From the NCBI GenBank assembly GCA_000004985.1, contig GG738893.1: DNA of 64,000 nt; one strand, given 5' to 3'. Under the pieces are notes generated by a model that was not told the origin of the DNA, did not search any database, and worked only from the letters and a program-made list of their open reading frames with translations. Shown piece after piece: positions 2,370 to 45,570 of this stretch (position 1 is its first letter; the number at the start of each line of letters is the position of its first letter). Position numbers and translations under genes: made by a program. Source of the stretch: Naegleria gruberi. Taxonomy: Eukaryota.

Positions 2370-3711
2370 ATGTCTGCAATACAAGAGTCAATAGCTACCG
2401 CAAGAAAGGAAGCACAAGACCTTCACGAACAAATTAAAAACACTAGGAAGAAAACCAATGACTGTAGTAGTATGTATTCTAAAGTTTACTTTGGATTTTA
2501 ACAATTCACTAGTTCGGGATATGGATGTGAAAGAAGTTGCTCCATTAAAAATCAGAGAACGTAGAGTACTCAAAGGACACACAGCAAAGATATATAGTTT
2601 GGCATGGGCCAAGGATTCTACGCACTTGTTGAGTGCCAGTCAAGATGGTAAATTACTGGTAAGTAGAGGTTTTATTGATTTTCAGTTTATTGTTGTTGTT
2701 ATTGTTATTATTGTTGCAATATAATTAGATTTGGGATGCAGTGAAGAATTTAAAGGTTCACGCCATTCCATTGCGATCTCATTGGGTTATGTGTTGTGAT
2801 TATAGTCCGTCAGGTAATGCTGTTGCAGCTGGTGGTTTGGATAATATTTGCTCAATTTGTTAGTATTTTTGAATATTTGAACGTTGATCTAATTATTATT
2901 CTATTGCTATTTAATGACTGTTTTATTATTGCTGATAATGAATATTGATGATTGGATATTATGGATAATTTTGGATAATAATTATTATAATACTACTATA
3001 ATTATTGGATTTGTTAAACAAATAGATACAATTTCATCATTAACTCAAGCTCAAAGTATAAATGATATTAAACCACATAGAGAATTATCTGGACATTCTG
3101 GATATTTGAGTAGTTGTAAATTCTTGAATGATAGACACATTTTATCTAGCTCAGGAGATTCTACTTGTATATTGTGGGATACTGAGATGGGACATCCAAT
3201 CAGTCGTTTTGAGGAACATACTGGTGATTGTATGTCCATTTCAATTTCACCAACAGGAGAGAATAATTTATTTATCAGTGGAGCTTGTGACGGAAACTCA
3301 AAGTTGTGGGATATTCGTATGAATAAGTGTGTTGCCACATTCACTGGACATGAAGGTGATATCAATTCAGTTCAATTTTTCCCTAATGGAAATGCCTTTG
3401 CCACTGGTTCTGATGATTGTACTTGTAGATTGTTCGACCTTCGTGCTTCACGTGAGGTTATGACCTATTCAGATGATAATGTCAGAGAAGGTGTCACTAG
3501 TATTAGTTTCAGCAAATCTGGACGTGTTTTATTTGCTGCCTATGAGTACAAGAAAGTTATTGCTTGGGATACTTTGAAAGGTAAGCCACTCCAAGTACTT
3601 GAAGGTCTTCCAAATGGTCACGATAATCGTGTCAGTTGTTTGGCTGTTTCTCCTGATGGCCACTCACTTGCCACAGGTTCATGGGACATGACTCTCAAGA
3701 TTTTTGCTTAA
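2370..3711 (+). CDS. heterotrimeric G-protein beta subunit (WD40), paralog 1; four exons: join(2370..~2466, 2513..2658, 2729..2858, 3026..3711)
   Basis: The translation aligns along its whole length with metazoan and Dictyostelium G-beta. Landmarks are [99 protein letters not shown] and a C-terminal WDMTLKIFA. Introns are GT..AG (the first donor is ambiguous between 2464, 2467 and 2470). The codon TAT (Y) is split by intron 3 exactly as in paralog 2. The start has the A-run context aaaaaaattgttaacaactgccacctgtcATG. Confidence 0.85.
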
Positions 3712-4079
3712 ATTATTTACACACCCCAACAATATTTAATCTTCATTCACACCAACATTAATTTTGTAAATTTCTAGCCCTAAAATATCTAGATATTTTC
3801 ATAACACACGCTCAATAATTGTCAATATAAATTCACTAATTTTCAAAAATGTTCACTAATTTTACTGTAAAGTTTTACAATTATTTCTCCCCTCATCATC
3901 ACCATGTTCATATTATCAATGGCTGTCATGGTTCAATAACAATTCAATTATTTGAAGTGCATCAATAGGTGCGGTTGATGCTGAAAGAAGAATCAGTTAA
4001 ACTGTTTTATTTGGCGCCACATTTGTAATTATCTTCTCTTGCCGCCAAAATAATAATCTGTAAAATAAAATTAAAAAAA

Positions 4080-17886: not shown

Positions 17887-18863
17887 TTAATGTGTTACAG
17901 TGAATTGGTGCAATCCATGACCTTCATCCAGTTTAGTTACATTGAATTGATGATAACAAGTGTCACCCCCTTCTCGAACAAACCTTTTGTAATTTGAAAG
18001 GGTTAGTACTTCATTGGTTATATATGGTGCATTCAAGGTAACTCCACAAATACTACAAATCATTTCTACAAGCAATGCTTCTATTGTAAACTGAATTTCT
18101 GGATCTTCCAGTCCCAAAACAAATTCAACATCCAAGAAAATATATGGTATAATGGAAAGGAAATCAGCAAATCTGTAACTAACACTGGCCTTTTCACTAT
18201 GGTGTTCAATTAAAACTCTGAAAAATTGATTTCCATTGACTGAAATTGAAAAATAGGAATCTGTAAAGCCATAATATGTATCTTGATCAATTTCATCTTT
18301 GAATTCAATTCTCAAAGGATATCCATAATCTGTAAAAATTGTAAAGTTTTTCTTAGATTTACCATTTTCTGATTCAACAGAATGAACAAACACATCGTGA
18401 TTCAATGTATAAGCATCTGCATAAAGACTCCATTTAGAATAATTTTCTAGAGTCTTTTCTCGTACTTTTTCCAATGCCAATCCAATATTACACAAATGAG
18501 AGACTTTTCTCAATCCCAGTTCTTTAATTATTAGTGGTGATGCTATTAATTTATAGAAATTATCTCTCTCGTACAATGACAAATACACAAATACTTGAAA
18601 ACATCCCAATGAGATTTAAACTGATTATTACTTTGATCATTCTTGGCATGTTCAATGCACAAATCATGACACTTTCCAATGATTTTGGTAAAACGGAAAT
18701 ATGTTTGCAAATAATGGTGAGCAAATTGATCATCATTTTGAATGGCATTGTACATTTTCTTAGATGAGAGACGCAAAGACAACACTTCCGATGGGCATGA
18801 GTAGAAGAGAATTAAATTAATTTCATCGAGGCAAAGATTGGCCAGGATTGAAACTTTGGACAT
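17887..18863 (-). CDS. F-box domain protein, probably two exons: complement(join(17887..18542, 18587..18863))
   Basis: The N-terminus carries an F-box (LDEINLILFYSCPSEVLSLRLSSKKMYNAIQND). The two overlapping ORFs in different frames are reconciled by a 44-nt GTATTT..TAG intron (18543..18586), the same size as other introns here. Confidence 0.45.
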
Positions 18864-19016
18864 TTTTTTAAAAGATTGGAAACACTTGCATTGTAAAGAA
18901 TGAAAGCTAAATATTATTGAAAAACAACTAAAAGGAAATCGCCCACCGTGGGGGTCGAACCCACGACCACAAGGTTAAGAGCCTTGCGCTCTACCGACTG
19001 AGCTAGACGGGCTATT
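18775..19016. repeat. tandem duplication unit A (5' end of F-box gene + spacer + tRNA-Lys), abutting an N-gap
   Basis: Nearly identical to 19067..19277 apart from two small indels (10 nt and about 21 nt) and a few substitutions. Confidence 0.7.
18940..19012 (-). tRNA. tRNA-Lys (anticodon CTT)
   Basis: The reverse complement GCCCGTCTAGCTCAGTCGGTAGAGCGCAAGGCTCTTAACCTTGTGGTCGTGGGTTCGACCCCCACGGTGGGCG folds into a canonical cloverleaf. The anticodon loop is CTCTTAA, the T-loop is GGTTCGA, and there is no encoded CCA. It closely resembles eukaryotic tRNA-Lys-CTT. Confidence 0.85.
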
Positions 19017-19066
19017 NNNNNNNNNNNNNNNNNNNNNNNNNNNNNNNNNNNNNNNNNNNNNNNNNN
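19017..19066. other. assembly gap (50 N)
   Basis: A run of N characters between the two duplication units. Confidence 0.95.
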
Positions 19067-19277
19067 CAAGACAACACTTCCGATGGGCATGAGTAGAAGA
19101 GAATTAAATTAATTTCATCGAGGCAAAGATTGGCCAGGGTTGAAACTTTGGACATTTTTTTAAAAGATTGCATTGTAAAGAATGAACGCTAAAAGGAAAT
19201 CGCCCACCGTCGTGGTCGAACCCACGACCACAAGGTTAAGAGCCTTGCTCTCTACCGACTGAGCTAGACGGGCTATG
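19067..19277. repeat. tandem duplication unit B (includes a 93-nt copy of the F-box gene 5' CDS and a second tRNA-Lys-like copy)
   Basis: 19067..19160 repeats 18770..18863, the first 31 codons of the F-box gene. The rest repeats the spacer and the tRNA. Confidence 0.7.
19201..19273 (-). pseudogene. tRNA-Lys(CTT)-like second copy with stem-disrupting substitutions (probable pseudogene or mis-assembled copy)
   Basis: The anticodon arm is the same, but D-stem position 25 is C->A, and the 3' T-stem reads ACGAC instead of CCCAC, breaking two pairs. Confidence 0.5.
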
Positions 19278-24745: not shown

Positions 24746-27147
24746 ATGACCAGCAAACAAAAACATTACGGATTGGATGATGGCATTGTTCCTGAAGCTT
24801 TTGAACTTCCATCGAAACAAGAGGTTATTGTGATGGAAAAGAATGGTAATATTCATGAAGTATTGCCTCCAAATATGCTCGATGGTGATGAAGTTAAAAG
24901 TGTAACGAGTACAACTTCGGATCAGGTTAACAAGGAAGAGGAAGAAGAATTTGAATATAAACCAGTAACAAATCTTGTAGAATATTTCAGTGATGAAAAC
25001 AATCGTAAACAAATTGATGTTGTTCTTCACTGTTTATCAAAATTGGAAGAAGAGTCATCGGATAAAACAAAGGCTATGGAACACAACGGAAGATTTCAGT
25101 TTTTGTGTAATATTCTCTATGATTTGGATAAATATGAGCTTGAATTCTACATGTTACAATTACTGTAGGTTTATAATATTAATTATTTTGGTGATGATTT
25201 AAATTTCTTATTAGAAATACTTACATGATGAAAGCAGGAGATGGTGATTCACATTTGGAACGTTATATTCTTGAAATTTGCGCCAAGTCAATGCACTTTG
25301 GTGTTAAATTGAGTTGGTTATTGGATGCTGAATTATATACATTGGAAAATCATTTGGCACAAACACCAAATAATATCAAATTAAAGAAGAGAGCACAAAG
25401 AGGAATGATTTTTAGAAATTTAATTGAAAAAGTTACGATTAATCAAGTTGTTCCTATTAATTATATGAATGACAGTTTCCTGAATACATCAATTCTTCAA
25501 GTAGATGCTGAATTCACAGAAGACCAAACTGAAGAAGAGAAGAATAAGCTCTCTACATATGTTTTGCAAAATGTTTTTGCCAAACAAAGAAGATCCAATT
25601 ATTTTAATGATGAACATTATTTCGTTCATTCCCTTACTGATTTATCCTATAGATTGAAGGCATATCCTCCAGGTGATATCAGAAAGCATCGTATGAAGGC
25701 AGAACTTGAACGTTTAAATCAATCAATTCCTTATGGTGTATATTATCCTTTGTGTGAATCACGTGATCCTCACTGTAGAATTTTGAGAATTTGTACAGAT
25801 GCTTGTCGTGTTTTTAGTACAAAGGAAAGAGTTCCAATTCTTTGTGTTTTTGAAGTCCTTACAGGTGATGCACCATGTACTCAACCTGAAGATGTTATTC
25901 AATTTGATGAAACCACTGAAGAATTCAATATTTATGATGGAATTATTGTGAAAAAGAATGGAGATTGTACAGATTCACCAGCAACAGAAGAAAGCAGAAT
26001 GATTGAAAGACGTATCAGCTCAACTTATCAATTTGATGTTACCATGGATGATGAAAAACACAAAAATGATATATTGGACGAAATAGATGCCACTTCAACA
26101 ATTTCAGACTCTTCAGACTCTGGTCCTAGAAAATCTGATGCTAGCTCTATCCCTCAAACACCATCTACCTTCAAGTCAGAGCTCCCAATTTTACACATTC
26201 CAAATATCAATCAAGATGATTTTGTTCTTATTGAAAAGAAGGATCCAACCAGAGATGAAGAAGTTTTACATGATTTGGAATCTGTATTTGGTGAAAGCTT
26301 TGAAAAGATTAAGGCCAAGTATAGAGCTGTTTCACCTTATGGGTGTGCTCCTGGTTGGGACTTGAGATCTGTAATTGTAAAAGCTAATGACGATATTAGA
26401 CAAGAAATATTTGCCATGCAATTAATCAAATTATTTGCCAGGATTTTTGAAGAAGAAAAATTGCCAATCTATATTAGGCCATATGAAATTATTGTGACAA
26501 GTGGAAATTGTGGTATGCTTGAAACAGTTCGTGATACTTGCTCAATTGATGGTTTGAAGAAGAAATTCCCTAACTTTACAAATCTCAAAGACTATTTTAT
26601 TCGCGTTTATGGATCTCCAACATCTAATACTTTTATCAGAGCACAAACAAACTTTGTGGAAAGTGTTGTAGGATATTCACTTATTTCATATATTCTCCAA
26701 ATCAAGGACAGACACAATGGCAATATTCTTTTAGATAGAGAAGGACATATGGTACACATCGATTTTGGATTTTTCCTTGGTATTTCTCCTGGTGGTGTTA
26801 AATTTGAAAATTCACCATTCAAACTTCCACAAGATTGGGTTGATTTGATGGGAGAATTATTTGATTTGCACTTTAGACCAGTATTTTATGTTGCTTTTGC
26901 TGCCTTGAGAAAACCTCGTAACATGAATAGATTATTGAACTTGGTGGAAATGATGATTGGCGCAAATTATAAATGCTTTGATGGTAATCATGCAAATATC
27001 ATGAGAGATTTGAGAAATAGATTCTATCCAAATCAATCTGAAGAAGAATTTGCCAAGACAGCCAGAAAACTTGTAGATGATTCCATAGATAACTGGTTTA
27101 CTAAGAGATATGATCAATATCAATACCTTACCAATGGTATTTTGTAA
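24746..27147 (+). CDS. phosphatidylinositol 4-kinase beta (PI4KIIIbeta/Pik1-like); two exons: join(24746..25164, 25215..27147)
   Basis: Exon 1 ends ...ELEFYMLQLL, matching PI4KB DFYLPQLL. A 50-nt GTAGGT..TAG intron removes an in-frame TAG. The catalytic domain has GWDLRSVIVKANDDIRQE, IKDRHNGNILLD and HIDFGFFLG. Confidence 0.85.
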
Positions 27148-27503
27148 ATTTAATAATTTGATTTGTAAAGTTTATGTTTAATTTAATTTCGCTTAGTTTC
27201 ATGATTCGAACAATACTTTATCTTGTTAATTAATTTACTTTATTTTGTTATTAAGCCTCATTCGTTTGTGGATTTAGTACATAGTTATTAGTAAGGTGCA
27301 TGTGAAATATTATTTTAGAACTGATAATGTCTCACACTTTTGATGGATAATATTGAGGAATTTTTTGCTCCATTCATGTGAAATAGGACATCATACATAA
27401 TCAAGCTTTAATAAATATCTTACATTGTTTCCTTGAGTTCTAAGAGGATCGCTATCCCTAATACGTAAGTTCCACAGCTAAATAAGAAAGAGAAATTGAT
27501 GTT

Positions 27504-28694
27504 TTAAAGTAAATATCCAGACCACATGTCATCCAAAATCTTAGTAACCTGCCATCCTGTTACTCCACCAAATAAGATGAATTGATTTGGAGCTGAGAGA
27601 GATCTTTGAATGACCATTGAACCCAATCTTCCTGTTGGGACAACATTTAAACTCTTGACAACATGCCATTGTTCCAAAATCATGTCAAAGTACCAAACAT
27701 CATTCATACCTTGAGAAGAAAGAGCTTCACCACCAAAGATAAAGAATGCAGATGAGCTTGTGCTTGTTTGAAATATAGATTGACCACTTCTTGCTGGTGG
27801 CCAAACTTGTTGCTTATTGATTTGTGTCCATTCTTTGGTTATCAAACTAAACTTCCACATGTCATCAGTGTTGACGGATCCATTGCCACTCTTAACATAC
27901 CCACCAAATACATAAATTGAGGAATGGCTCATTGCACTATAAAGAATTGGAGCATACATTCTAGGTGAAATAACTGGACTGTTGCCAACTGGTTTGATTT
28001 CAGTAAATTGATAATTAATCAACGAGAATACATAAACTTGATTATAAAAGTTATCATTCACATCCGAACCTCCAAACATGAGAATATAAGAATTATCGAC
28101 ACAAGTTGTAAAATGGCCAAACTTGGAAGCAATTTTAACTTGTTCCTCATTCGAATCATTGTTCACAACAATCCACTCTCTCAAGCTCAGATCAAACTTC
28201 CAAATCTGTCCATTCACAGAAGTCTTTCCACTCTTTCCTCCAATCACGTAAAAGTGCTTTCCACACATCACTGCAGAGGCATCTTTCAAAGCAGGTGGCC
28301 ACGCCTTCCCTTCTTTTCTTTCAATTTGTGTCCAAGTAGACTCTTGATGATCAAACATCCACAAATCACTCAATGTAACAAACTTATTTCCAGTCCCTCC
28401 GTACAACATGGTCAGAGATCGATCAGGAGTAGAAGCAAAAGCAAAGTCAAATCGTGCTGAAGGTCCCGAAGCAAGGCTGGTCGAATTAAATTCAAGTTTC
28501 CATCCCATATAGTCCTGTTGTTGTTGTTGAGAGGAGGAAGTGTAGGAGGTTAGTACAGGCTCGACCATTATAGTTTTAATAATAATTATAATGAAAATAA
28601 TGATGATGAATAAATAACGATGCTGATGATGGTGTTTGAAAGATGACGATGATGATGATGGTAAGAATGAAAGGCTCAGTGCCGATATAGCCAT
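27504..28694 (-). CDS. kelch-repeat beta-propeller protein with an N-terminal signal/anchor segment
   Basis: MAISALSLSFLPSSSSSS ... IIIIFIIIIIKTIM (hydrophobic). Repeated kelch-like blades (YVIGGKSGKTSVNGQIWKFDLSLREW; LMFGGSD...; YVFGGYVKSG...; FIFGGEA...) each carry a GG doublet and a W. Confidence 0.55.
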   Translation of the reverse strand: MAISALSLSFLPSSSSSSFKHHHQHRYLFIIIIFIIIIIKTIMVEPVLTSYTSSSQQQQQDYMGWKLEFNSTSLASGPSARFDFAFASTPDRSLTMLYGGTGNKFVTLSDLWMFDHQESTWTQIERKEGKAWPPALKDASAVMCGKHFYVIGGKSGKTSVNGQIWKFDLSLREWIVVNNDSNEEQVKIASKFGHFTTCVDNSYILMFGGSDVNDNFYNQVYVFSLINYQFTEIKPVGNSPVISPRMYAPILYSAMSHSSIYVFGGYVKSGNGSVNTDDMWKFSLITKEWTQINKQQVWPPARSGQSIFQTSTSSSAFFIFGGEALSSQGMNDVWYFDMILEQWHVVKSLNVVPTGRLGSMVIQRSLSAPNQFILFGGVTGWQVTKILDDMWSGYLL

Positions 28695-29097
28695 TTTTTT
28701 AATTAAGATTTTTATTATTTGCAAATTTGGGAAATTGATTTATTTGGGCTTTACTAAACCAACACCATCAAAATTGTGTTGAATATTAATTGAGTGTTAA
28801 TGTTTGTTAAATATTAATTTATTAACATTAATGCAATACTTTTTTGAATATTTTCCTCATTTAAAATTGAACTGTTTTGTACTCAATTCTTCAACTAAGC
28901 CATTCAAGTACAGATCTTATCCAATGATTTGTGTTCTTCAATTTAATGTTTTTGTAAAGTCAAGGATTGAAACACTCCTTCAAAATGTGCGCCTTTTTTT
29001 CGGAGGTATAGGACACATTCAAGAACTCAAGTTAAACAAGTTAGTTTGAAAACACTTTCAAGAATAAGAAAAAACAAGATTATCAATCAGCAACAAC

Positions 29098-29988
29098 ATG
29101 GACCAGAAGGAAATTGCTCTTCTCGGAGGAACACAAGGAATTGGTAGACAATGCCTTTTGTTGATGCTAATTAAAGGATTGAAAGTGAGAGTATTGGCCA
29201 GAAATCCATCAATGTTGTCTTCACTCAATGAAAAGTACTCACACCTTCTAACAATTGTTAAGGGAGATGCCACCAGAGAGGAAGATGTTGCAAAATTGAT
29301 TGCACCTTCAGTGGATCATGTATTGTGTGCTCTCGGGGCTCGTCTCAATGAACCTACCACTATTATTGAATCGGGAGTAAATAATGCACTGAAAGCAATG
29401 AAGAAATTGGATAAGGAGATGAGATTTGTGATGGTTACATCGAATGGAGTATTAGAAGCAGGAGTGAATTGGTTCTATGACAATATCATGAAGAAGCACT
29501 TGTTGAATCATTTCTATGATGATATGACAAGAGCTGAGAAGGCCCTTAAACAATTGACTGAAAATTCAAAGATTTCCTATGCAATTGTTAGACCACCTCA
29601 ATTGATTGATGCCCCAGCCACATTAGAACTCATACATGGTGAAGGAGAATACTATCCACATGGAACACATCTCGTCACCAGAGAGGATGTTGGTGCATTC
29701 ATGATTGAATGCTTATTTAACGAAAACCTCACCAAAGGAAATAGAGAATTCAATTTGAATACAACAAAAGTATTGGAAACCAAGATTGATAACATGCAAA
29801 CATTGAAGAGTATTATGCCATATCCAAAGTATTTAATGATTCGATTGTTCATATTCTCAGTGATGACTGGAATTGGTTCATTGAGTGCTTTTGCATTGTA
29901 CAAAATCAAATCATTGCTATTCCCTTCTATTGATATATCGAAAATAATTTCCTCTTGGTTAATTAAATCATTGGAATCAAATAAATAA
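29098..29988 (+). CDS. NAD(P)-binding Rossmann-fold protein (NmrA/BLVRB-like atypical SDR) with a C-terminal hydrophobic segment
   Basis: N-terminal LLGGTQGIGRQ dinucleotide-binding motif. The overall pattern resembles NAD(P)H-binding atypical short-chain dehydrogenase/reductases. C-terminal helix FIFSVMTGIGSLSAFALY. Confidence 0.55.
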   Translation: MDQKEIALLGGTQGIGRQCLLLMLIKGLKVRVLARNPSMLSSLNEKYSHLLTIVKGDATREEDVAKLIAPSVDHVLCALGARLNEPTTIIESGVNNALKAMKKLDKEMRFVMVTSNGVLEAGVNWFYDNIMKKHLLNHFYDDMTRAEKALKQLTENSKISYAIVRPPQLIDAPATLELIHGEGEYYPHGTHLVTREDVGAFMIECLFNENLTKGNREFNLNTTKVLETKIDNMQTLKSIMPYPKYLMIRLFIFSVMTGIGSLSAFALYKIKSLLFPSIDISKIISSWLIKSLESNK

Positions 29989-30255
29989 TTTAATGTTGAT
30001 AATAATTTGTTTTCTTATTCTTTAAGTATTTATTATTGATATGATGAACATTGGTTTCCACTGAACTCTTGACTCGAATGTTTTGTAATTTTCAAAATCT
30101 AATAATAGCCCCAATTTTGCTCAAGTTCCATCAACACAGAAAAAAAATACACCTTGTTGTTGTAGCGTGCGATTTTTGATCAAAGACAAATTCATCATAT
30201 CGTCATCACAGAGTGTGTTGTGTAATTTATATTAAAAAAATTTAAAATCATCATC

Positions 30256-31556
30256 ATGAGTACCTTTGATTTGGATCAATATATTGCATCATACAGTGGT
30301 CTTACCAAGGTCAAGAGACTTGTATTTATTAGTGAAAATTCTAAAGATCTTCGCGGTAAAGCTCTTTCTAAACTTTTTGAATTATTAAAGAGTGGAAAGA
30401 ACACAGCTCTCTACAAGGAACTTGTTGAAAAGTACGGAAAGGAGTAAGTATTGATCATTAGTATAGTTTTTATTGATGATCCTATTTTATTAGTGCTGGA
30501 CAAACATTAGACAGCGAATGGATTACCCAAGTTGATCGATCAGCCACAAAACAACAAGAAAAGCTTGAAGTTGAACTTAATGCCCATAAAACAAACTTGA
30601 TCAAGGAATCTATTCGTACTGGACATAATGAATTGGGAGATTTCCATTTGGAAAGAGGAAACTTGCAAGAATCATTGAAGAGTTATCTTAGAACAAGAGA
30701 CTATTGTACATCATCTAAACATGTTAACGAAATGTGTTTGAATGTTATTCGTGTCAGTGTTGAAATGGGTAACTATGCTCTTGTCAACCAATATGTTACA
30801 AAGGCTGAAAATACTCCTGATGTTTCTGAAGGAACTGACATTATTACCACATCAAAGATTTTGGCATCTTCTGCTTTGGCTAATCTTGAAGGAAAGAAGT
30901 ATAAGATTGTTGCTAGAAAATTATTAGATTGTGAAATTGTTTTAGAAAATTCTTTCAATGATGTAATTACTTGTAGTGATATTGCTCTTTATGCTGGTTT
31001 GACAGCTCTTGCCACCTTTGATAGACGTGAATTGAAGGAAAAGGTTTTGTCTAATAATAAGTTTAGAGCTTTCCTTGAATTGGAACCTGATGTTTCAAAT
31101 ATTATTAATTGTTTCTATGAATCCAAGTATACTGCTTGTTTGGAATCACTTGATAGATTACTACCAAGATTATTGTTAGATATTTATTTGAAGGAACATG
31201 TTACTACTTTGTATGAAAAGATCAGAAGCAAGGCTTTGGTACAATATGTCAGTACTTTCACTTCTGTTGACATGAATAAGATGGCTGTTGTTTTTAACAC
31301 TACTGTAGAAAACTTGGAAAAGGAAATTGCTGCTTTAATTATGGAAAAGCAAATCAAGGCCCGTATTGACTCACACAAGAAGATCCTTTATGCTCGTGTT
31401 ACTGATATTCGTAATGCCACCTATCAAAAGGCTTTGGAAATGGGTGATTCATTTATCAGAGAATCTGAAGCTTGTATTTTGAGAATGAACATTAACAAAC
31501 AAAAGGACTTTGCTGTTAAACCAAATAGAAAACTTGCCAAGCAAATGATGTTCTAA
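30256..31556 (+). CDS. COP9 signalosome subunit 1 (CSN1/GPS1); two exons: join(30256..30443, 30494..31556)
   Basis: FDLDQYIASYSGLTKVKRLVFIS matches human [44 protein letters not shown] matches [21 protein letters not shown]. The PCI region is conserved (RDYCTSSKHVNEMCLNVIRVSVEMGN ... FYESKYTACLESLD). A 50-nt GTAAGT..TAG intron sits in phase 2. Confidence 0.85.
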
Positions 31557-31622
31557 ATAAATAAAAAACTACTGTATAATTAATTGTATTTACAAATTGT
31601 AAAGTTTGATTAATTTTAAAAA

Positions 31623-32291
31623 TTAATCTGTCAATTCTTCAATTCTCTTGACTTCTGTTGATCCATCACTGTTAAAAGCTCCAATACCTAGACCATCCTC
31701 TTGTAAGATATCATCTACTAATGTACAAATTTTACCATAATTACGAATGACAGTATCTGCATCTTCTGGTGTTTTTCTACAAACTGCTTTACACCCCTCC
31801 ATAACACCTTTACATGCTTCTCTAAGAGCTAATTCTCCATGATCTTCATCTCCTACAACGAAGAATAAAACTGATTGAATTCTTGTGAATACAATCATTC
31901 TCTCATTCATGAATGAAAATACTTTGAAAAATCCATCAGGTTGGGGCACTGAACCCTTGTTGACTCTTCTTACATAATCTACAATTGTATCGGCCCAAGC
32001 AATATTTTGATTTTTAAAATCATTATTCACAATTGAAGAGGTAAGTGCTGCTTCACTTCCAACAAAACTACCTCCCGATTTTTGTGCCATCATCATTGTT
32101 GTACTCATTGATGATCTCTTCTTTGGTGAATAGGAAGTAGGTTTTGAAAATGATCCTAATAGTCCAACATCATCCGATTCCGATAATTGTTTTTGTTGAA
32201 ATGATGTAGAAAGTGCTGAGAGTATTGTTGGTGATTTTCTTGCGAACAATACTTTGAAAAAGTCGTCCGTTATTATTACTCCATCAAGCAT
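31623..32291 (-). CDS. hypothetical protein (possible longin/roadblock-like fold)
   Basis: 222-aa ORF with a true ATG. A central alpha/beta-like segment (RMIVFTRIQSVLFFVVGDEDHGELALREA) is present. No confident family. Confidence 0.4.
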   Translation of the reverse strand: MLDGVIITDDFFKVLFARKSPTILSALSTSFQQKQLSESDDVGLLGSFSKPTSYSPKKRSSMSTTMMMAQKSGGSFVGSEAALTSSIVNNDFKNQNIAWADTIVDYVRRVNKGSVPQPDGFFKVFSFMNERMIVFTRIQSVLFFVVGDEDHGELALREACKGVMEGCKAVCRKTPEDADTVIRNYGKICTLVDDILQEDGLGIGAFNSDGSTEVKRIEELTD

Positions 32292-32436
32292 TTTTTTTTA
32301 AATTTAAAAATTTATTAAATTTAATTTAAATATTACAATTAACTATTTACTGTAATTACCTTTACTTCTTTAAATTTTGTAACATTAATAATTGTTTAAT
32401 AACATGCAAATTCAAAATTTAATTTAAAAAAAATAC

Positions 32437-33000: not shown

Positions 33001-34065
33001 TTAATGTTTCCAACCATTTGAATGACCTTGTTCTCTGTAAGGTTCTAAAAATCCTCTAAATATCACTTGATTTGAATTGGTGGTATCTTGATCAGATTTG
33101 ATAGAATTATTTCCCCTTTTATACACCCATCTAGATCCATATCCTTCAAAATTTCTCACTTCAACACAAGGAACATTATGAGGAAGAATGTGTGCATTAA
33201 TAAATGTTGCCTCATTTACAATCTTTTCTAAAATTGCAAGAGATTTTCTATTCTTTTCCTTGGCATTTCCAGTTAAGACAGTAGAACCTCCCCAAAATTG
33301 ATCAGTTTCACTTCTGTGACAATGCTTAGCAAGAGCTCTGGCTCCAACTGTGAGACCACTTGTCTTTTCCAAAACTTCATTAAATGAATCAATTAATTCC
33401 TTATAGGTTGGTATCATGTATGAAATACTGCCTGTTGTTTTCCTCATCCTTAGACAGGTTTGAAATCCTCTTAATTTCATTTCCAGAATAATTTGTTGAA
33501 CATGTTCATCCAAGACTGTTTCCTCAGTACTGAAATCCGTAGAGTTCAATTTCAGAATTCTATCTGTAAATTTTGAACTGAGCTCTGTGTAATATTCAAA
33601 ATCATCTTCAATGCTTGGAAATTGTTGGAATTGAATTGGGAATTTTCCTTCTCTACCCCATAATATCCAAATGAAAGCAATCTATCTCAATAATCGAATT
33701 AGAAATAAAATCAAAATATTTACCTCTTGGAAAATATTTGAAACATTCAATGTTGGATAACCAATTAATATTTTCTCTCCATTCTCCAAATTATGATATT
33801 TTACAAGATTTAATAAATTAGCATCATCATTAATATTTTCCTCCTGATCGGAATTTACAAAATTCAATCCAAGGGCTTCCTTCAAGTACTCAGCAGAGAC
33901 TGCAATCGGAGTGGGATCTTTAAATTCCTGTTGCTCATCTGATCCTAAATCATTATTCAACTGAGGGGAATGACAAATCCATTCACTAAATAAATTGCTA
34001 TCATTTAATATGAAGGAAATTGATTTCCGAATACAATTTGATAAATTACAAATATTTGGCAACAT
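33001..34065 (-). CDS. hypothetical protein; two exons: complement(join(33001..33681, 33724..34065))
   Basis: A 42-nt GTAAAT..TAG intron joins the two minus-strand ORFs in frame (…NIFQE|IAFIWILWGREGKFP…). Its stop codon directly abuts the Nudix stop codon (TAATTA at 32998..33003). Confidence 0.45.
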
Positions 34066-34857
34066 GTTTTAATGTTATTGTATTTTTTTTTAATTTAAAA
34101 ATTTCAATTTTAAAAAACGGATCGCCTTTATGGACGACTATTTCAAAAAGTTTCAGAAATTGTAAGTGTTCATAATTGTTTTTATTATTTCCAATAACTT
34201 CAACTTGTTCGAAACATCCCAAACCTTCATGTATTTTCATTACCCAAAAGACAATCTTCAAAAGGAAAGTTGACCCACTAATCAAACCCACAAAAATATC
34301 AATTGAATACCATTCTAAGTGTTCCACATCTTCAAATTTCAATCCTCTCTAGAAGAAACTAAACTATTCAATAATGATTGGTGTGTGAATGGCTCAAATA
34401 ATACAACCAATACCAAGTATCTCATCTGTGATATCAGAAAAAGCCTTCAGTATCACCAACTCACTCCCAACTCTCTGTGAACGAATGTTTGAAAATCAAA
34501 AACTTCCTCTGTCAATTTTATTGTTGTTTGCCACTTTCCAAATCTTCCAACCTCAACAACACACAAAAAAAAGCCTTCAACCGCGCTCGCTGCGACACCC
34601 AACAAATCTCGTCAATCTTTTTTTTGCCGCCACTTTCCAGCAGCGTTTTCAACGTCGATATTCTCTCTTCTTTGAAAAAACAACTTTGCGTCGTCATTGT
34701 CGAGGACTTGATATAAACTCATCAAAGTCATCATACATTAGAATACACTAATAATATACACATCATCTCGTTTTTGTTATCTTCTTCTTCATTAACGAAA
34801 AATATAAAGGGTGAGTGATTTGAAAGATTGTGTTTTATTTAAAATATCAAAAAGAAA

Positions 34858-36169
34858 ATGGCCGAAATTAATTTACAAGAAGCTATTTCAAATGCCAGAT
34901 TAGAGGCACAACAATTGAAGGAAAAAATCAACGCACAGAGAAAAGTTATTAATGATGTGAACAGTAAGTGTTTTTATTGTGTGAGGTTTTTATAATTTAC
35001 TCTTGACATTTGACAAACATCATCAACATGTTGGAAATTTATGATGATATTTTATTATTAAAACTAAATAGTGAAGGATTTGGATGTTGCTGAAATTTCA
35101 CCTCTCAAATTAAAGGAACGAAGAGTGTTTAAAGGACACTCATCTAAAGTTGCTAGTTTAGCTTGGTCAAAGGACTCGAAGACAATTTTGACTGCCGGCC
35201 AAGATAGAATGTTAATTGTAAGTTTAGGAAGTGGTAATAATGATTTGATGACACTTTTTAGTTATGGGATGCTGTGACAACATATAAATTGAGTGCTATT
35301 CCTCTACAAGCTCGTGGTATTATGTGTTGCGATTATAGTACGAGTGGAAATTATGTTTGTGTTGGTGGTTTGGATAACATTTGTTCAGTTTGTAAGTAAT
35401 TATTATCAATAATTATGATGTTAATAAGTTTCGAATAGTTTCCCTTTCTGCTGTTACTCAACAATTACAAAACTCATCCAATGAATACAAGCCATTCAGG
35501 CAACTAGTAGGACATACAGGCTATTTGAGCTCTTGCAAATTTATTAGTGATCGTCACATATTAACTAGTTCTGGAGATCAAAGTTGTATTTTCTGGGATG
35601 TTGAAATGACTCACGCGGTGTCACATTTCCAAGTAAGTATTATTCAATATTAGAAATGTTAACTATTTAATTAGGAACATACTGGTGATTGTATGGCTGT
35701 TTCTGTTTCTCCTATTGAACAAAATGTATTTGTTAGTGGAAGTTGTGATGGTAGTTCAAAGTTGTGGGATGTACGTATGAATAAGTGTGTTGCCACATTC
35801 ACTGGTCATGAAGGTGATATCAATTCAGTTCAATTTTTCCCTAATGGAAATGCCTTTGCCACTGGTTCTGATGATTGTACTTGTAGATTGTTCGACCTTC
35901 GTGCTTCACGTGAGGTTATGACCTATTCAGATGATAATGTCAGAGAAGGTGTCACTAGTATTAGTTTCAGCAAATCTGGACGTGTTTTATTTGCTGCCTA
36001 TGAAGATAAGAAAGTTATTGCTTGGGATTCATTGAAAGGAACCATTTTACAAACTTTGGATGGCCTTCCAAATGGTCACGATAATCGTGTCAGTTGTTTG
36101 GCAGTTTCTCCTGATGGACACGCTCTTGCCACAGGTTCATGGGACATGACCATGAAGATATTTGCTTAA
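34858..36169 (+). CDS. heterotrimeric G-protein beta subunit, paralog 2; five exons: join(34858..34963, 35072..35217, 35262..35391, 35439..35632, 35675..36169)
   Basis: [35 protein letters not shown] | [23 protein letters not shown] ... [17 protein letters not shown] ... GGLDNICSV | F SLSAV ... [41 protein letters not shown] | [13 protein letters not shown] ... WDMTMKIFA. All introns are GTAAGT..AG (108, 44, 47 and 42 nt). The last 400 nt are near-identical to paralog 1. Confidence 0.85.
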
Positions 36170-36289
36170 ATTATTTAAAGCCAACACATATCTTTCAGAA
36201 GTCAGTCATTTTCTCGATCATCATTTTCAATTCCCATCCTTATATTCTCCTCAGTTTTCCCCTTTTCAACTCCATTAATAAAAACCATC

Positions 36290-37576
36290 TTAATTTATTC
36301 TTAAAACTTTTCCAGCTCCAATTATTTGTTTTCCATTCATTAAGATGACTCTTCCTAGAATATCATTCTGTTCGAATGTGTGCAGATAACATGCCTTGTT
36401 TTCTTTTGTTATTAGTGGCTTTAGCCTTACTTCTGCAAAATCACCCTTTTTCAGTTTGTTTGGATAGGTTTCTAATTTCTGGTTCGTTTTTGGATTTACA
36501 GTTGCTAATATATCTTCTATTTTACAAAGGCATTGATTAGTGACACAATTATAAAGTTTGAAAGTGTATCCAACTTTGATTCCATTCTTTGGTTGATTCA
36601 TAATCTTTATCAAAGCTGTGAAAGATTCCACAGCTTTTTTTTCTGACTCCAGGTAAGCTTGGTCATGTATTATAAAATGTGTTTCAACATCTCGTACAGA
36701 AGCTTGTTTGATATTGATTCCACAAAACTCTCCACAAACAACTAGATCACGATGCTCATATCCTATTTCAATAGATTTCACCAGATGTGAACTGTCATCT
36801 CTGAAATAAACTTGTTGGTCCGTTTTAATCTTACCAGTTATTATTTTCCCAGCTACTACTGTGCCAATTCCACCGATTCTGTAAATTTGAAATATAACCA
36901 TCATTAGAGGTTTTTCAATCCATTCCTTTCTTGGTTCAACTTGAATTGCTTTTAATACAGATTCTAATGATTTACCCTTTGAAAATTCACCAGTAGTTGG
37001 TTTGAAAATGTTTTCATCCCTGTCATAACAAATAGGAATGAAAGGAACGTTTTTCCACAATAAAATAGTTTTCAATTTTGATCTAATTTCCTCCAATCTT
37101 GAATTCAATTCAATTACTGGTATTGTATCACATTTTGTTAAACAAACAACCAAATGGGTCAATCCAACAGCTGCAGCTATTTGTAAATGAGTTCTCATAT
37201 TTCCAATAGAATTATTAATATCCTTTTCAAATACTCCTTTTGTGACATCCACAACCAATACACAAATATTTGATAACCAAATAGCCTTCACCATACAATC
37301 GATTTTCTTCTTCTGTGTTGTAGATACATCCAACAAGGTCATTACTTCATTATCCTCCCTATATTGTTTATGAGAGAGTGCAATTTTTATCATCCCTTCC
37401 CGATCAGGATAGTATACATGAGATGCACACATTCTATATGCACCCAATCGATCGGTCTGATAATTATTCATATTTCTTAAAATTGTTCTCTCATCTGGAT
37501 TTATGATCTTTCCGACAAGTGTTGTTTTTCCAGACTTTTCAGCTCCAATGAATGAAATATTTTTTTGTTGCACCAT
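36290..37576 (-). CDS. EF-Tu/eEF1A-family translational-GTPase-like protein with degenerate G3 and G4 motifs (pseudo-GTPase candidate)
   Basis: G1 is intact (GAEKSGKTTL). Where DxxG should be the sequence reads LLDVSTTQ (no Gly). NKxD is replaced by TKCD. Domains II and III of the EF-Tu beta-barrel are recognisable (VVAGKIITGKIKTDQQVYF). Confidence 0.55.
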   Translation of the reverse strand: MVQQKNISFIGAEKSGKTTLVGKIINPDERTILRNMNNYQTDRLGAYRMCASHVYYPDREGMIKIALSHKQYREDNEVMTLLDVSTTQKKKIDCMVKAIWLSNICVLVVDVTKGVFEKDINNSIGNMRTHLQIAAAVGLTHLVVCLTKCDTIPVIELNSRLEEIRSKLKTILLWKNVPFIPICYDRDENIFKPTTGEFSKGKSLESVLKAIQVEPRKEWIEKPLMMVIFQIYRIGGIGTVVAGKIITGKIKTDQQVYFRDDSSHLVKSIEIGYEHRDLVVCGEFCGINIKQASVRDVETHFIIHDQAYLESEKKAVESFTALIKIMNQPKNGIKVGYTFKLYNCVTNQCLCKIEDILATVNPKTNQKLETYPNKLKKGDFAEVRLKPLITKENKACYLHTFEQNDILGRVILMNGKQIIGAGKVLRIN

Positions 37577-37898
37577 TTTCTTTTTTTTGAATTTAATTTT
37601 TTATTTCAAAATTATTAAATTTTACATCTTCTGATCAGCGAGTTCAAACTTGAAAGTTGTAATTAACATATTTTTCTGTAATAGTGTGAAGTTGTAATCA
37701 CCTCTCCCTTATAACTTTCTTATTTTACTCATCCAAGATCAATTCTCCATTAACATTAGAAGTACAGTAGTATCTGACAACAAACGATTTATAAATTTAA
37801 CAACTTAATTTATGAGGAAGTTTAAGCTGCGGGGTGCAACATCACTAAGTAATTCCATTTCATGTAGGAGTTTCTTCAAATTGTATAGAACTAAATAA

Positions 37899-38790
37899 TT
37901 AAGGTTTAAAATCTATATAAATATCTCCACTGAAAACCTGTTTACCAAATACATTTCTTTCAACAGTTTTAAATAACGTAGTAGTTTTACGTAACAGAAT
38001 TGATTCAATATCTATATCCTTTAAAAGTGCTGCTTCTTTACATTTTTCATCCACAATAGCACCTTTATGAAGTAAACATTCTATTATCTCAATATAATAG
38101 CCATTGATTGCAGCATAGAGAGGAGAAACATCACCTTGGTTGACCTTAATTTCTTTTGCTTCCAATAATAATTTGACAATATCTAAATATCCTCTTTTGC
38201 ATGCTGCATAAAGTGGCGTTGTAGAAATACGATAATCACTACTATCGTGTGGTAATTCACTATAGACATATTCATCTTTCATTGGTTCCTAAAAAAAGAA
38301 TAAACTATTAAGGATATTTAATTGGGAAAGTACTTACATCATAATTGTAAATAGTTCTGTTGACTTCAATATGCCTACATTTTAATAGCAATTTAACCAT
38401 TTCATAATCACCTGTTTTACAAGCATAATACAATGGAATGTCATGTTTATCAAAATGTTGAAATATAGTACACATTCTATAACAACCAAAATTTACATTA
38501 ATCCCATCAACTGTTAATAATAACTTTACAATATCTCTAAATCCTCTGGTGTAGGCAGCAAATAGAGGTGAACAACTATCTGTATAACAGTGCACTCCAT
38601 AGTTTACATCAATTCCTTCCACAGCTAACAATAATTCCACAATTTCAATATTTCCTTGTACACAAGCAGCAAATAATGGAGAATAATAAGCATCTCGACC
38701 ATTAATATCAACATCATCACTACCACCACTTGATAATATTAATTTAACACTCTCGACATCACCCGTTGTACAGGCTTCAAACAGAGACAT
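37899..38790 (-). CDS. ankyrin-repeat protein; two exons: complement(join(37899..38288, 38338..38790))
   Basis: At least six ANK-like repeats (SPLFAACVQGNIEIVELLL; PLFAAYTRGFRDIVKLLL; PLYYACKTGDYEMVKLLL; PLYAACKRGYLDIVKLLL; PLYAAINGYYIEIIECLL). A 49-nt GTAAGT..TAG intron in phase 0 rejoins NYD|EPMKDEYVY. Confidence 0.65.
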
Positions 38791-43997: not shown

Positions 43998-44092
43998 TAA
44001 GCTTACTCAACTTTAACAGTATTCCTTTCTGAAGAAAAATCTTCTCTAAAATTACTTTGTGCCAAACCAAGTTTTGTAACGGCAATAACAAA
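43998..44092. repeat. decayed copy of the 3' end (last ~90 coding nt plus start of 3' UTR) of the membrane-protein gene at 45474..46152
   Basis: ctataagcttactcaactttaacagtattcctttctgaagaaaaatcttctctaaaattactttgtgccaaaccaagttt aligns with 45464..45570 (ctataaatttattcaaccttaacagtcttgtcttcactttggaagaaaaatcttctccaaaattgctttgtgccaaaccaagttt). In the parental frame the copy carries TAA and TAG and a 5-nt length difference. Confidence 0.6.
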
Positions 44093-45463: not shown

Positions 45464-45570
45464 TTCTATAAATTTATTCAACCTTAACAGTCTTGTCTTC
45501 ACTTTGGAAGAAAAATCTTCTCCAAAATTGCTTTGTGCCAAACCAAGTTTCAATAAAACCAGCAGTATTA
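45464..45570. repeat. parental copy of the ~100-bp repeat (3' terminal CDS + 3' UTR of the membrane-protein gene)
   Basis: See the partner at 43998..44092. Confidence 0.6.

What the first reader, a model, noticed from the sequence alone, without database searches (positions are those of the whole stretch)
3301..3711. Gene-conversion tract between two G-beta paralogs 32 kb apart
G-beta paralog 1 (3301..3545) and paralog 2 (35759..36003) share 245 bp with only 3 mismatches. This includes a 197-bp run of perfect identity covering all synonymous sites. Similarity stays about 88% to the stop codon and into the first ~10 nt of the 3' UTR (taaattattta in both). In contrast the 5' halves have diverged to roughly 55-60% protein identity ([21 protein letters not shown] against [23 protein letters not shown]). 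That sharp boundary is the signature of recent non-allelic gene conversion homogenising the C-terminal blades (WD5-7) while the N-terminal helix and blades 1-4 evolve independently. The N-terminal helix is the G-gamma/effector-contacting part, so the two genes may pair with different gamma subunits while sharing an identical C-terminal surface.
Basis: seen in the sequence. Interest (0 to 1): 0.6.

Follow-up and report, generated by a model that had tools for sequence, protein, structure and literature searches.

The report
Gene conversion between Naegleria G-beta paralogs
Two neighbouring G-protein beta-subunit genes of the amoeba Naegleria gruberi have recently copied about 240 bases of their last exon from one to the other, and related species show the same process, so this is a clean but ordinary case of gene conversion between duplicated genes.

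Summary
Window 3301-3545 and 35759-36003 differ at 3 of 245 bases, with a 197-base perfect run (3349-3545).

- **Genes:** Both are intact G-beta genes of Naegleria gruberi: g1 at 2370-3711 and g2 at 34858-36169. g2 equals XP_002673054.
- **Age of the duplication:** It is old. N. lovaniensis and N. fowleri carry both orthologues in the same order.
- **Silent-site divergence between g1 and g2:**
  - 0.59-0.76 in codons 1-217
  - 0.02 in codons 234-299
  - 0.66 in a 20-codon island (codons 300-319)
  - 0.23 in codons 320-353
- **Not nucleotide conservation:** In the tract, orthologues from the closest relative differ at 30 of 246 bases. The two N. gruberi copies differ at 4.
- **Trees:** They switch from grouping by orthologue (100%) to grouping by genome (99%).
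- **Permutation test:** P<2e-4.
- **Recurrence:** Site patterns show later conversion in N. lovaniensis and/or N. fowleri. A close relative of N. gruberi shows its own shared tract.

Interlocus gene conversion is therefore well supported. It is recurrent across the genus and mosaic.

Donor direction is unresolved. No independent sequence of g1 was found. This is a new example of a well-known process and is of modest interest.

The parts
2370..3711 (+). G-beta paralogue g1: 353 aa, 3 introns, exons 2370-2469, 2513-2658, 2729-2858 and 3026-3711. It is the orthologue of N. lovaniensis C9374_011183 and N. fowleri FDP41_000768.
   Evidence: Gene model from GT..AG introns and an intact reading frame. 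Pfam WD40_Gbeta scores 436.8 bits against a cut-off of 150, over profile positions 6-339 of 340. It aligns end to end with GNB1. Against the Ny_g1 orthologue in codons 1-173, pN is 0.17 and pS 0.69, so the gene is under purifying selection. No matching protein exists in the public collections.
34858..36169 (+). G-beta paralogue g2: 356 aa, 4 introns, exons 34858-34963, 35072-35217, 35262-35391, 35439-35632 and 35675-36169. It is N. gruberi XP_002673054 / EFC40310.
   Evidence: The translation is identical to P0002. Pfam WD40_Gbeta scores 391.1 bits. An independent metagenome contig, L008, reproduces the gene with 1 SNP and a 3-bp intron indel.
3298..3545 (+). Recent conversion tract, copy in g1 (codons 218-299). 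The maximum-likelihood core is 3316-3545 and the perfect run is 3349-3545.
   Evidence: Mismatches only at 3313, 3315 and 3348. The flanking mismatches are 3297 and 3546. pS is 0.21 in codons 218-233 and 0.02 in codons 234-299.
35756..36003 (+). Recent conversion tract, copy in g2. The perfect run is 35807-36003.
   Evidence: Same alignment at offset 32458. L008 carries the same tract with one C>T change at 35893.
3546..3606 (+). Divergence island in g1 (codons 299-319, ...[21 protein letters not shown]). It still shows full paralogue divergence. The partner in g2 is 36004-36064.
   Evidence: 20 mismatches in 61 nt. pS is 0.66 and pN 0.22. Paralogue-specific states are shared across species: 12 orthologous against 0 concerted sites in the N. 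lovaniensis/N. fowleri quartet.
3607..3719 (+). Older homogenised block in g1 (codons 320-353 plus 8 nt of 3' UTR). The partner in g2 is 36065-36177.
   Evidence: 92% identity over 3601-3719. pS is 0.23, against 0.42-0.52 for other-species sequences. Site patterns are 5:1 and 8:1 concerted to orthologous against N. lovaniensis and N. fowleri. The shared ATTATTTA after the stop is not shared with other species.
35633..35674 (+). Intron 4 of g2 (42 nt, phase 0, between ...SHFQ and EHTG...). It is absent from g1 and lies 82 nt upstream of the tract.
   Evidence: It is absent from both paralogues of N. lovaniensis and N. fowleri and from Ny_g1. It shows that the conversion did not extend this far upstream.

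Best explanation
**What it is.** The window comes from Naegleria gruberi. It carries two old, same-strand paralogues of the heterotrimeric G-protein beta subunit, 32.5 kb apart. A stretch of about 230-250 bp in the last exon of one gene was recently overwritten with the sequence of the other. The process is interlocus (non-allelic) gene conversion.

**Inferred mechanism.**
- A break or gap in one copy was repaired by homologous recombination, using the paralogue on the same chromosome, the sister chromatid or the homologue as template.
- There was no crossover, because both genes keep their own 5' parts, their own island and their own flanks.

**Why the tract stops where it does.** It ends where homology runs out.
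- Upstream there is a 1-codon indel and 30-40% divergence.
- Further upstream the coding sequence is split into exons of 100-146 bp by unrelated introns.
- The longest shared run in codons 1-217 is only 21 nt.
- Downstream there is a 61-nt island with 20 mismatches.

**History.** The same exon has been converted before.
- Codons 320-353, plus 8 nt beyond the stop, form an older converted block in N. gruberi.
- A close relative of N. gruberi shows its own shared tract.
- At least one of N. lovaniensis and N. fowleri was converted after those two species split.
- The 3' 40% of the two genes therefore evolves in concert across the genus. The N-terminal helix, blades 1-4 and a short island in blade 6/7 stay paralogue-specific.

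**Shown:** the tract, its age relative to the duplication, the conflict between trees, and the recurrence.
**Inferred:** the repair pathway, and whether the boundaries are set by loss of homology or by selection.
For: **Tract**
- 3 mismatches in 245 nt and a 197-nt perfect run.
- Best segment 3316-3545 is 99.6% identical, against 67.7% elsewhere.

**Silent sites**
- pS is 0.76, 0.59 and 0.70 in codons 1-100, 101-173 and 174-217.
- It is 0.21 in codons 218-233 and 0.02 in codons 234-299.
- It is 0.66 in codons 300-319 and 0.23 in codons 320-353.

**The duplication is old**
- N. lovaniensis and N. fowleri each have both orthologues on one contig and one strand, 11.4 kb and 6.7 kb apart.
- The same neighbouring genes are present.
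- In codons 1-217 the g2 orthologues form a clade with 100% bootstrap support.

**The tract is not conserved at the nucleotide level**
- N. gruberi and the closest relative differ at 30 of 246 nt in the tract, for both paralogues.
- The two N. gruberi copies differ at 4 of 246.

**Topology switch**
- In codons 166-217, Ng_g1 groups with Nx_g1 (98%) and Ng_g2 with Nx_g2 (100%).
- In the tract, Ng_g1 groups with Ng_g2 (99%) and the Nx pair groups together (100%).

**Site patterns, concerted to orthologous**
- 2:20 upstream, then 28:1 in the tract (N. gruberi/Nx quartet).
- 8:59 in codons 1-173, then 20:0 in the tract (N. gruberi/N. lovaniensis quartet).

**Permutation test**
- N. gruberi pair: run of 87 polymorphic sites, P<2e-4.
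- N. lovaniensis pair: run of 35, P<2e-4.
- N. fowleri pair: run of 17, P=0.005.

**Other checks**
- g2, including the tract, is reproduced by an independent metagenome contig.
- No Rfam family matches the tract.
- The only long repeats in the 64-kb window that link the two loci are these gene segments, so this is not a segmental duplication.
Against: - No independent sequence of N. gruberi g1 could be found. The g1 side of the tract therefore rests on one assembly.
- Donor and acceptor are unresolved. Five of 6 diagnostic sites look g1-like, but the g2 reference set is only the sister pair N. lovaniensis/N. fowleri.
- The evidence from the close relative is imperfect. Its g1 is a 731-bp metagenome contig assembled at k=141 (L007), and its 3' UTR equals that of the g2 transcript L006. 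It could be an assembly chimera. Such a chimera would itself need about 140 nt of identity between that organism's two genes.
- L006 and L007 come from different samples.
- GC3 is not raised in the tract, so there is no sign of GC-biased conversion.
- Sequence alone cannot separate non-reciprocal conversion from a reciprocal double exchange.
Confidence: 0.93

Rival explanations
1. Assembly artefact. The consensus of g1 (or g2) is a chimera in which reads from one paralogue were merged into the other, creating a false shared tract.
For: g1 has no independent sequence in any collection searched. Short-read metagenome assemblers can make such chimeras, and L007 may be one.
Against: - g2 with the tract is reproduced by an independent contig, L008.
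- The tract is short and bounded on both sides by paralogue-specific coding sequence inside the same exon. Three scattered mismatches sit at its 5' edge, and similarity decays gradually. A collapse would not look like this.
- N. lovaniensis and N. fowleri, assembled independently, show statistically significant shared runs in the same region.
Confidence: 0.02
2. Nucleotide-level purifying selection. The two copies are identical at silent sites because the DNA or RNA of this stretch has a function of its own (an embedded RNA, a splicing or translation signal) or because of extreme codon bias.
For: The protein is highly conserved here (pN 0.00-0.06 across species). Silent divergence in the 3' part is somewhat lower than in the 5' part in all comparisons.
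Against: - Orthologues differ at 44-50% of silent sites inside the tract, or 30 of 246 nt, while the two copies in one genome differ at 4 of 246.
- 28 sites are species-specific yet shared by both paralogues.
- No Rfam match.
- GC3 is unremarkable.
Confidence: 0.01
3. Recent whole-gene or partial duplication. g1 and g2 are young copies and the 5' parts diverged very fast.
For: None beyond the tract itself.
Against: - Both paralogues have separate orthologues in N. lovaniensis and N. fowleri, with conserved neighbours.
- The g2 clade has 100% support in codons 1-217.
- Silent sites are saturated in the 5' part.
- Intron number and lengths differ.
- The flanks are unrelated.
Confidence: 0.005
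4. Reciprocal exchange instead of copy-and-paste. Two nearby crossovers between misaligned chromatids swapped the segment, followed by loss or fixation, rather than a non-reciprocal conversion.
For: Sequence from a single haploid consensus cannot distinguish the two. Both leave an identical segment only if one product is then lost, or if the exchange was between already similar segments.
Against: - A single reciprocal swap exchanges the segments and does not make them identical.
- Identity of both resident copies is the expected outcome of non-reciprocal conversion.
- The tract length of about 240 bp is within the usual range reported for conversion tracts (established knowledge, not tested here).
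Confidence: 0.03

Closest known systems
Interlocus (non-allelic) gene conversion between linked paralogues that gives mosaic divergence, for example GOT1p1/GOT1p2 in Tigriopus californicus (PMC3728101) and Caenorhabditis paralogues (PMC3966223). Theory is reviewed in PMC3924837.
   Same: Old duplicates on one chromosome. Short tracts are identical at silent sites. Tree topology depends on the region. Islands of high divergence persist between converted blocks. Events repeat in separate lineages.
   Different: The organism is a heterolobosean amoeba, for which I found no report of conversion between paralogues of a protein-coding gene. The genes encode G-beta. The copies are 32 kb apart in N. 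gruberi, with many genes in between.
Concerted evolution of duplicated ribosomal protein genes in fungi (PMC6993855).
   Same: Repeated, lineage-parallel homogenisation of the coding sequence of retained duplicates.
   Different: In that case, as I understand it, whole coding regions are homogenised. Here only the 3' 40% is, and the 5' 60% is clearly paralogue-specific.
Heterotrimeric G-protein beta subunit (GNB1-type, Pfam PF25391).
   Same: Both genes match the family model over its full length and align with GNB1 from the N-terminal helix to blade 7.
   Different: The Naegleria proteins carry small insertions, for example 4 residues next to the island. Their partners and functions are unknown.

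Membership tests
Heterotrimeric G-protein beta subunit (Pfam PF25391 WD40_Gbeta) | Full-length match to the family profile above the curated cut-off | tested here: met
   g1 scores 436.8 bits and g2 391.1 bits against a cut-off of 150. The matches cover profile positions 6-339 and 5-339 of 340.
Heterotrimeric G-protein beta subunit (Pfam PF25391 WD40_Gbeta) | N-terminal helix followed by a seven-bladed WD40 propeller, collinear with a solved G-beta | tested here: met
   g1 residues 10-352 align with GNB1 residues 6-339 in one stretch, E about 1e-124. This is by sequence only; no structure was predicted.
Heterotrimeric G-protein beta subunit (Pfam PF25391 WD40_Gbeta) | Forms a dimer with a G-gamma subunit and binds G-alpha | not testable with these tools
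   No partner genes were examined and no biochemical data exist.
Interlocus gene conversion | A bounded segment of near-identity between paralogues that includes silent sites, flanked by diverged sequence | tested here: met
   pS is 0.02 in codons 234-299, against 0.59-0.76 upstream and 0.66 immediately downstream. The best segment is 3316-3545.
Interlocus gene conversion | The duplication is older than the shared segment | tested here: met
   Separate orthologues of g1 and g2 exist in N. lovaniensis and N. fowleri. The g2 clade has 100% support.
Interlocus gene conversion | Phylogenetic conflict between the segment and its flanks | tested here: met
   Grouping is by orthologue in codons 166-217 (98-100%) and by genome in codons 218-299 (99-100%). 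Site patterns are 2:20 against 28:1.
Interlocus gene conversion | The run of agreement is longer than expected by chance (GENECONV-type test) | tested here: met
   A run of 87 concordant polymorphic sites; 0 of 5000 column permutations reach it.
Interlocus gene conversion | The segment is not simply conserved at the nucleotide level among orthologues | tested here: met
   30 of 246 nt differ between N. gruberi and its closest relative in both paralogues, against 4 of 246 within the N. gruberi genome.
Interlocus gene conversion | Identifiable donor and acceptor (non-reciprocal transfer) | tested here: inconclusive
   5 of 6 diagnostic sites are g1-like, but the reference set is weak. L008 shows that g2 already had this sequence in a second strain. 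That fits either direction.
Interlocus gene conversion | Both copies verified as real, independent of one assembly | tested here: inconclusive
   g2 is verified by L008. No second source for g1 was found.

The most novel reading that the evidence does not exclude
The mosaic may be maintained by selection rather than by loss of homology alone. On this reading the last exon of the two G-beta genes is a long-lived conversion hotspot across the genus Naegleria. The short island that resists homogenisation (codons about 300-319, GK[VP]LQ.LEG in most g1 sequences against GTILQ.LDG in g2) and the N-terminal 60% would then be the determinants that make the two G-beta subunits functionally distinct, for example through different G-gamma or effector partners or different life stages. 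The island would be a ready-made pointer to a specificity site. The recurrent tracts would be direct evidence of active homologous recombination in an organism whose sexual cycle has never been observed.
Probability: 0.2. Interest if true: 0.5.

Novelty: new member of a known kind. Interest (0 to 1): 0.3.

Why it matters
**Trees can mislead.** A tree built from the C-terminal half of these G-beta genes would wrongly suggest independent, species-specific duplications in each Naegleria species. The N-terminal half shows a single old duplication.

**A pointer to functional residues.** The two subunits are kept distinct in the N-terminal helix, blades 1-4 and a short island in blade 6/7. The regions that resist homogenisation are candidates for partner specificity.

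**Evidence of recombination.** The tracts show that ectopic homologous recombination has acted repeatedly in Naegleria. Meiosis genes are present in the genus (PMC9928731), but sex has not been observed.

**Annotation.** g1 appears to be missing from the public N. gruberi protein set, so the species' G-beta count may be understated.

None of this changes what is known about gene conversion itself.

Tried and rejected
**Looking for an independent copy of N. gruberi g1.** None of these gave a hit:
- An exact 22-mer scan of JGI metagenomes.
- A protein-guided scan of the same collection.
- Exact look-ups of the spliced protein and of six possible last-exon ORFs.
- A protein search with the N-terminal 149 aa, where the best hit was 53% identical.
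- Two searches with a 217-aa query timed out.
- A 91-aa query returned 'no candidate'. I regard that result as unreliable, because known relatives share many 5-residue words with the query.

**GC-biased conversion.** GC3 in the tract is 0.27-0.28, against 0.24-0.26 upstream. There is no signal.

**Embedded RNA.** No Rfam match at E<=1 in 3000-3900.

**Segmental duplication.** Rejected. The only similarity between the two loci lies in the gene segments.

**Direction of transfer.** Six diagnostic sites are too few and are confounded by conversions in the reference species.

**Literature**
- No paper on gene conversion between Naegleria nuclear paralogues or on Naegleria G-beta genes.
- A search for G-beta/G-gamma contact residues returned nothing relevant.
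- A term search in PMC3924837 found none of my terms.

Full report
**1.
- At a constant offset of 32458, window 3301-3545 and 35759-36003 differ at three positions (3313, 3315, 3348). The perfect run 3349-3545 is 197 nt long.
- A two-breakpoint likelihood scan of the codon alignment picks 3316-3545. Identity is 99.6% inside and 67.7% outside, with 2*deltaLnL = 143.9.
- The repeat finder reports the same pair as 3265-3564 / 35723-36022 (95%) and 3601-3719 / 36059-36177 (92%).
- It finds no other similarity between the two loci apart from weaker matches of upstream exons.

**2. What the two genes are.**
- GT..AG introns give two intact genes.
  - g1: exons 2370-2469, 2513-2658, 2729-2858 and 3026-3711; 353 aa.
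  - g2: exons 34858-34963, 35072-35217, 35262-35391, 35439-35632 and 35675-36169; 356 aa.
- Both match Pfam WD40_Gbeta over the full profile, at 436.8 and 391.1 bits against a cut-off of 150.
- g1 aligns with GNB1 from the N-terminal helix to the last blade.
- The g2 translation is identical to N. gruberi XP_002673054, so the window is N. gruberi.
- The g1 protein is absent from the collections searched. It is nevertheless under purifying selection: pN is 0.17 and pS 0.69 against an orthologue in codons 1-173.

**3. Related sequences.**
- N. lovaniensis has both orthologues on one contig and one strand, 11.4 kb apart.
- N. fowleri has both, 6.7 kb apart.
- Exon structures were recovered exactly from the annotated proteins.
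- Willaertia magna supplies a single g1-like outgroup gene.
- An ENA contig (L004) is a g1 orthologue from another Naegleria, with the same downstream gene.
- A Logan transcript (L006) and a 731-bp ENA contig (L007) represent g2 and part of g1 from a close relative, called Nx here.
- ENA contig L008 is 97% identical to window 33282-38153. It carries g2 with one SNP (35893 C>T) and a 3-bp intron indel.

**4. Silent-site profile.** Nei-Gojobori pS between g1 and g2 by codon range:

| Codons | pS |
|---|---|
| 1-100 | 0.76 |
| 101-173 | 0.59 |
| 174-217 | 0.70 |
| 218-233 | 0.21 |
| 234-299 | 0.02 |
| 300-319 | 0.66 |
| 320-353 | 0.23 |

**5. The tract is not conserved between species.**
- Inside the tract, N. 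gruberi and Nx orthologues differ at 30 of 246 nt (pS 0.44-0.50) for both paralogues. The two N. gruberi copies differ at 4 of 246.
- Neighbour-joining trees group by orthologue in codons 1-217 (g2 clade 100%) and in codons 166-217 (Ng_g1 with Nx_g1 98%, Ng_g2 with Nx_g2 100%).
- In codons 218-299 they group by genome (Ng_g1 with Ng_g2 99%, the Nx pair 100%).
- Informative site patterns, concerted to orthologous, flip from 2:20 to 28:1 in the N. gruberi/Nx quartet. In the N. gruberi/N. lovaniensis quartet they flip from 8:59 (codons 1-173) to 20:0.
- In a GENECONV-style permutation, the N. gruberi pair has a run of 87 concordant polymorphic sites, and no permutation out of 5000 reaches it.

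**6. The 3' end is a mosaic.**
- Right after the tract lies an island, 3546-3606, with 20 mismatches in 61 nt.
- It encodes ...[21 protein letters not shown] in g1 and ...[21 protein letters not shown] in g2.
- Most g1 orthologues keep the form GK[VP]LQ.LEG (Ny_g1 has D for the E). All g2 orthologues keep GTILQ.LDG.
- In the N. lovaniensis/N. fowleri quartet the island has 12 orthologous and 0 concerted sites.
- Beyond it, 3607-3719 is 91-92% identical, with pS 0.23 and concerted-to-orthologous counts of 5:1 and 8:1 against the other species.
- The identity runs 8 nt past the stop codon, and those bases are not shared with other species.
- I read this as an older conversion block.

**7. Recurrence.**
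- The N. lovaniensis pair has a 77-nt identical run (L001 11176-11252 / L002 11341-11417), permutation P<2e-4.
- The N. fowleri pair has runs of 41-49 nt, P=0.005.
- In codons 218-233 the paralogues are identical within each of those two species. The orthologues differ at 4 of 10 silent sites between the species.
- At least one of the two lineages therefore converted after they split.
- Nx shows a 369-nt identical run, with a caveat: L007's 3' UTR equals L006's, so L007 may be a k=141 assembly chimera. Such a chimera would itself need about 140 nt of identity between the Nx paralogues.

**8. Rivals.**
- *Assembly artefact* is unlikely.
  - g2 is independently confirmed.
  - The tract sits between paralogue-specific coding sequence within one exon.
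  - Other genomes show the same phenomenon.
  - The g1 side, however, rests on one assembly.
- *Nucleotide-level selection* is contradicted by the orthologue comparison and by the absence of any Rfam match.
- *Recent duplication* is refuted by orthology, synteny and intron differences.

**9. Mechanism (inferred).**
- This is homologous repair of a lesion in one copy, using the other as template, without crossover.
- The 5' part offers no long homology. The longest shared run in codons 1-217 is 21 nt, and the short exons are separated by unrelated introns.
- The uninterrupted last exon is the only substrate. Each conversion restores homology there and so favours the next one.
- Whether the island and the 5' boundary are kept by selection or only by mismatch-limited heteroduplex extension cannot be decided here.
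- GC3 gives no sign of biased conversion.
- The donor is unresolved.

**10.
- The tract maps to GNB1 residues 209-290: the end of blade 4, blade 5 and most of blade 6.
- The two proteins are not identical in their C-terminal parts. They differ at 9 of the last 54 residues.
- Different G-gamma pairing is possible but untested.
- As I recall the published G-beta-gamma structures and chimera studies, C-terminal blades also contact G-gamma. The N-terminal helix is therefore not the only candidate determinant. This was not checked here.

**11. Comparison with what is known.**
- Mosaic divergence with persistent islands under interlocus gene conversion is well described (PMC3728101, PMC3966223, PMC3924837, PMC6993855).
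- I found no report for Naegleria nuclear paralogues or for its G-beta genes.
- This is a new and well-documented member of a known kind.

Noticed in passing
window 2370-3711: The g1 G-beta gene has an intact reading frame and is under purifying selection. No identical or near-identical protein appears in the public collections, while g2 is there as XP_002673054. g1 may be unannotated in the N. gruberi reference protein set.
   Followed up: partly
window 35633-35674; L007 82-207: g2 has a fourth intron (42 nt, phase 0, before EHTGDCM). It is absent from g1 and from both paralogues of N. lovaniensis and N. fowleri. The g1-like contig of the close relative (L007) has a 126-nt intron at exactly the same position, with no obvious sequence similarity by eye. 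This implies intron gain with later loss, or transfer between the paralogues.
   Followed up: partly
window 3547-3549: Immediately after the last identical base of the tract, g1 has TAC (Tyr) where g2 and all nine other sequences compared have Asp (YEDKK motif). It is a g1-specific change at a conserved residue, right at the tract edge.
   Followed up: no
window 24776-32298: Three genes lie upstream of g1 in N. fowleri and N. lovaniensis: a PI4-kinase, an RPN7/PCI protein and a 225-aa protein. In N. gruberi they lie between the two G-beta genes in inverted orientation. This rearrangement accounts for part of the larger spacing (32 kb against 7-11 kb).
   Followed up: partly
window 18776-19276: Two tRNA-Lys(CTT) genes on the minus strand (18940-19012 and 19201-19273) sit inside a tandem direct repeat with a period of about 260-290 bp and 97-99% identity.
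   Followed up: partly
L008 (= window 33282-38153): An environmental metagenome contig (ERZ929261) is 97% identical to this part of the N. gruberi genome. Over 34282-36281 there are only 4 differences, while the flanks carry more, plus one large indel near 37532-37781.
   Followed up: partly
window 44019-44074 and 45495-45550: A 56-nt direct repeat, 88% identical, 1476 bp apart. It was not examined.
   Followed up: no
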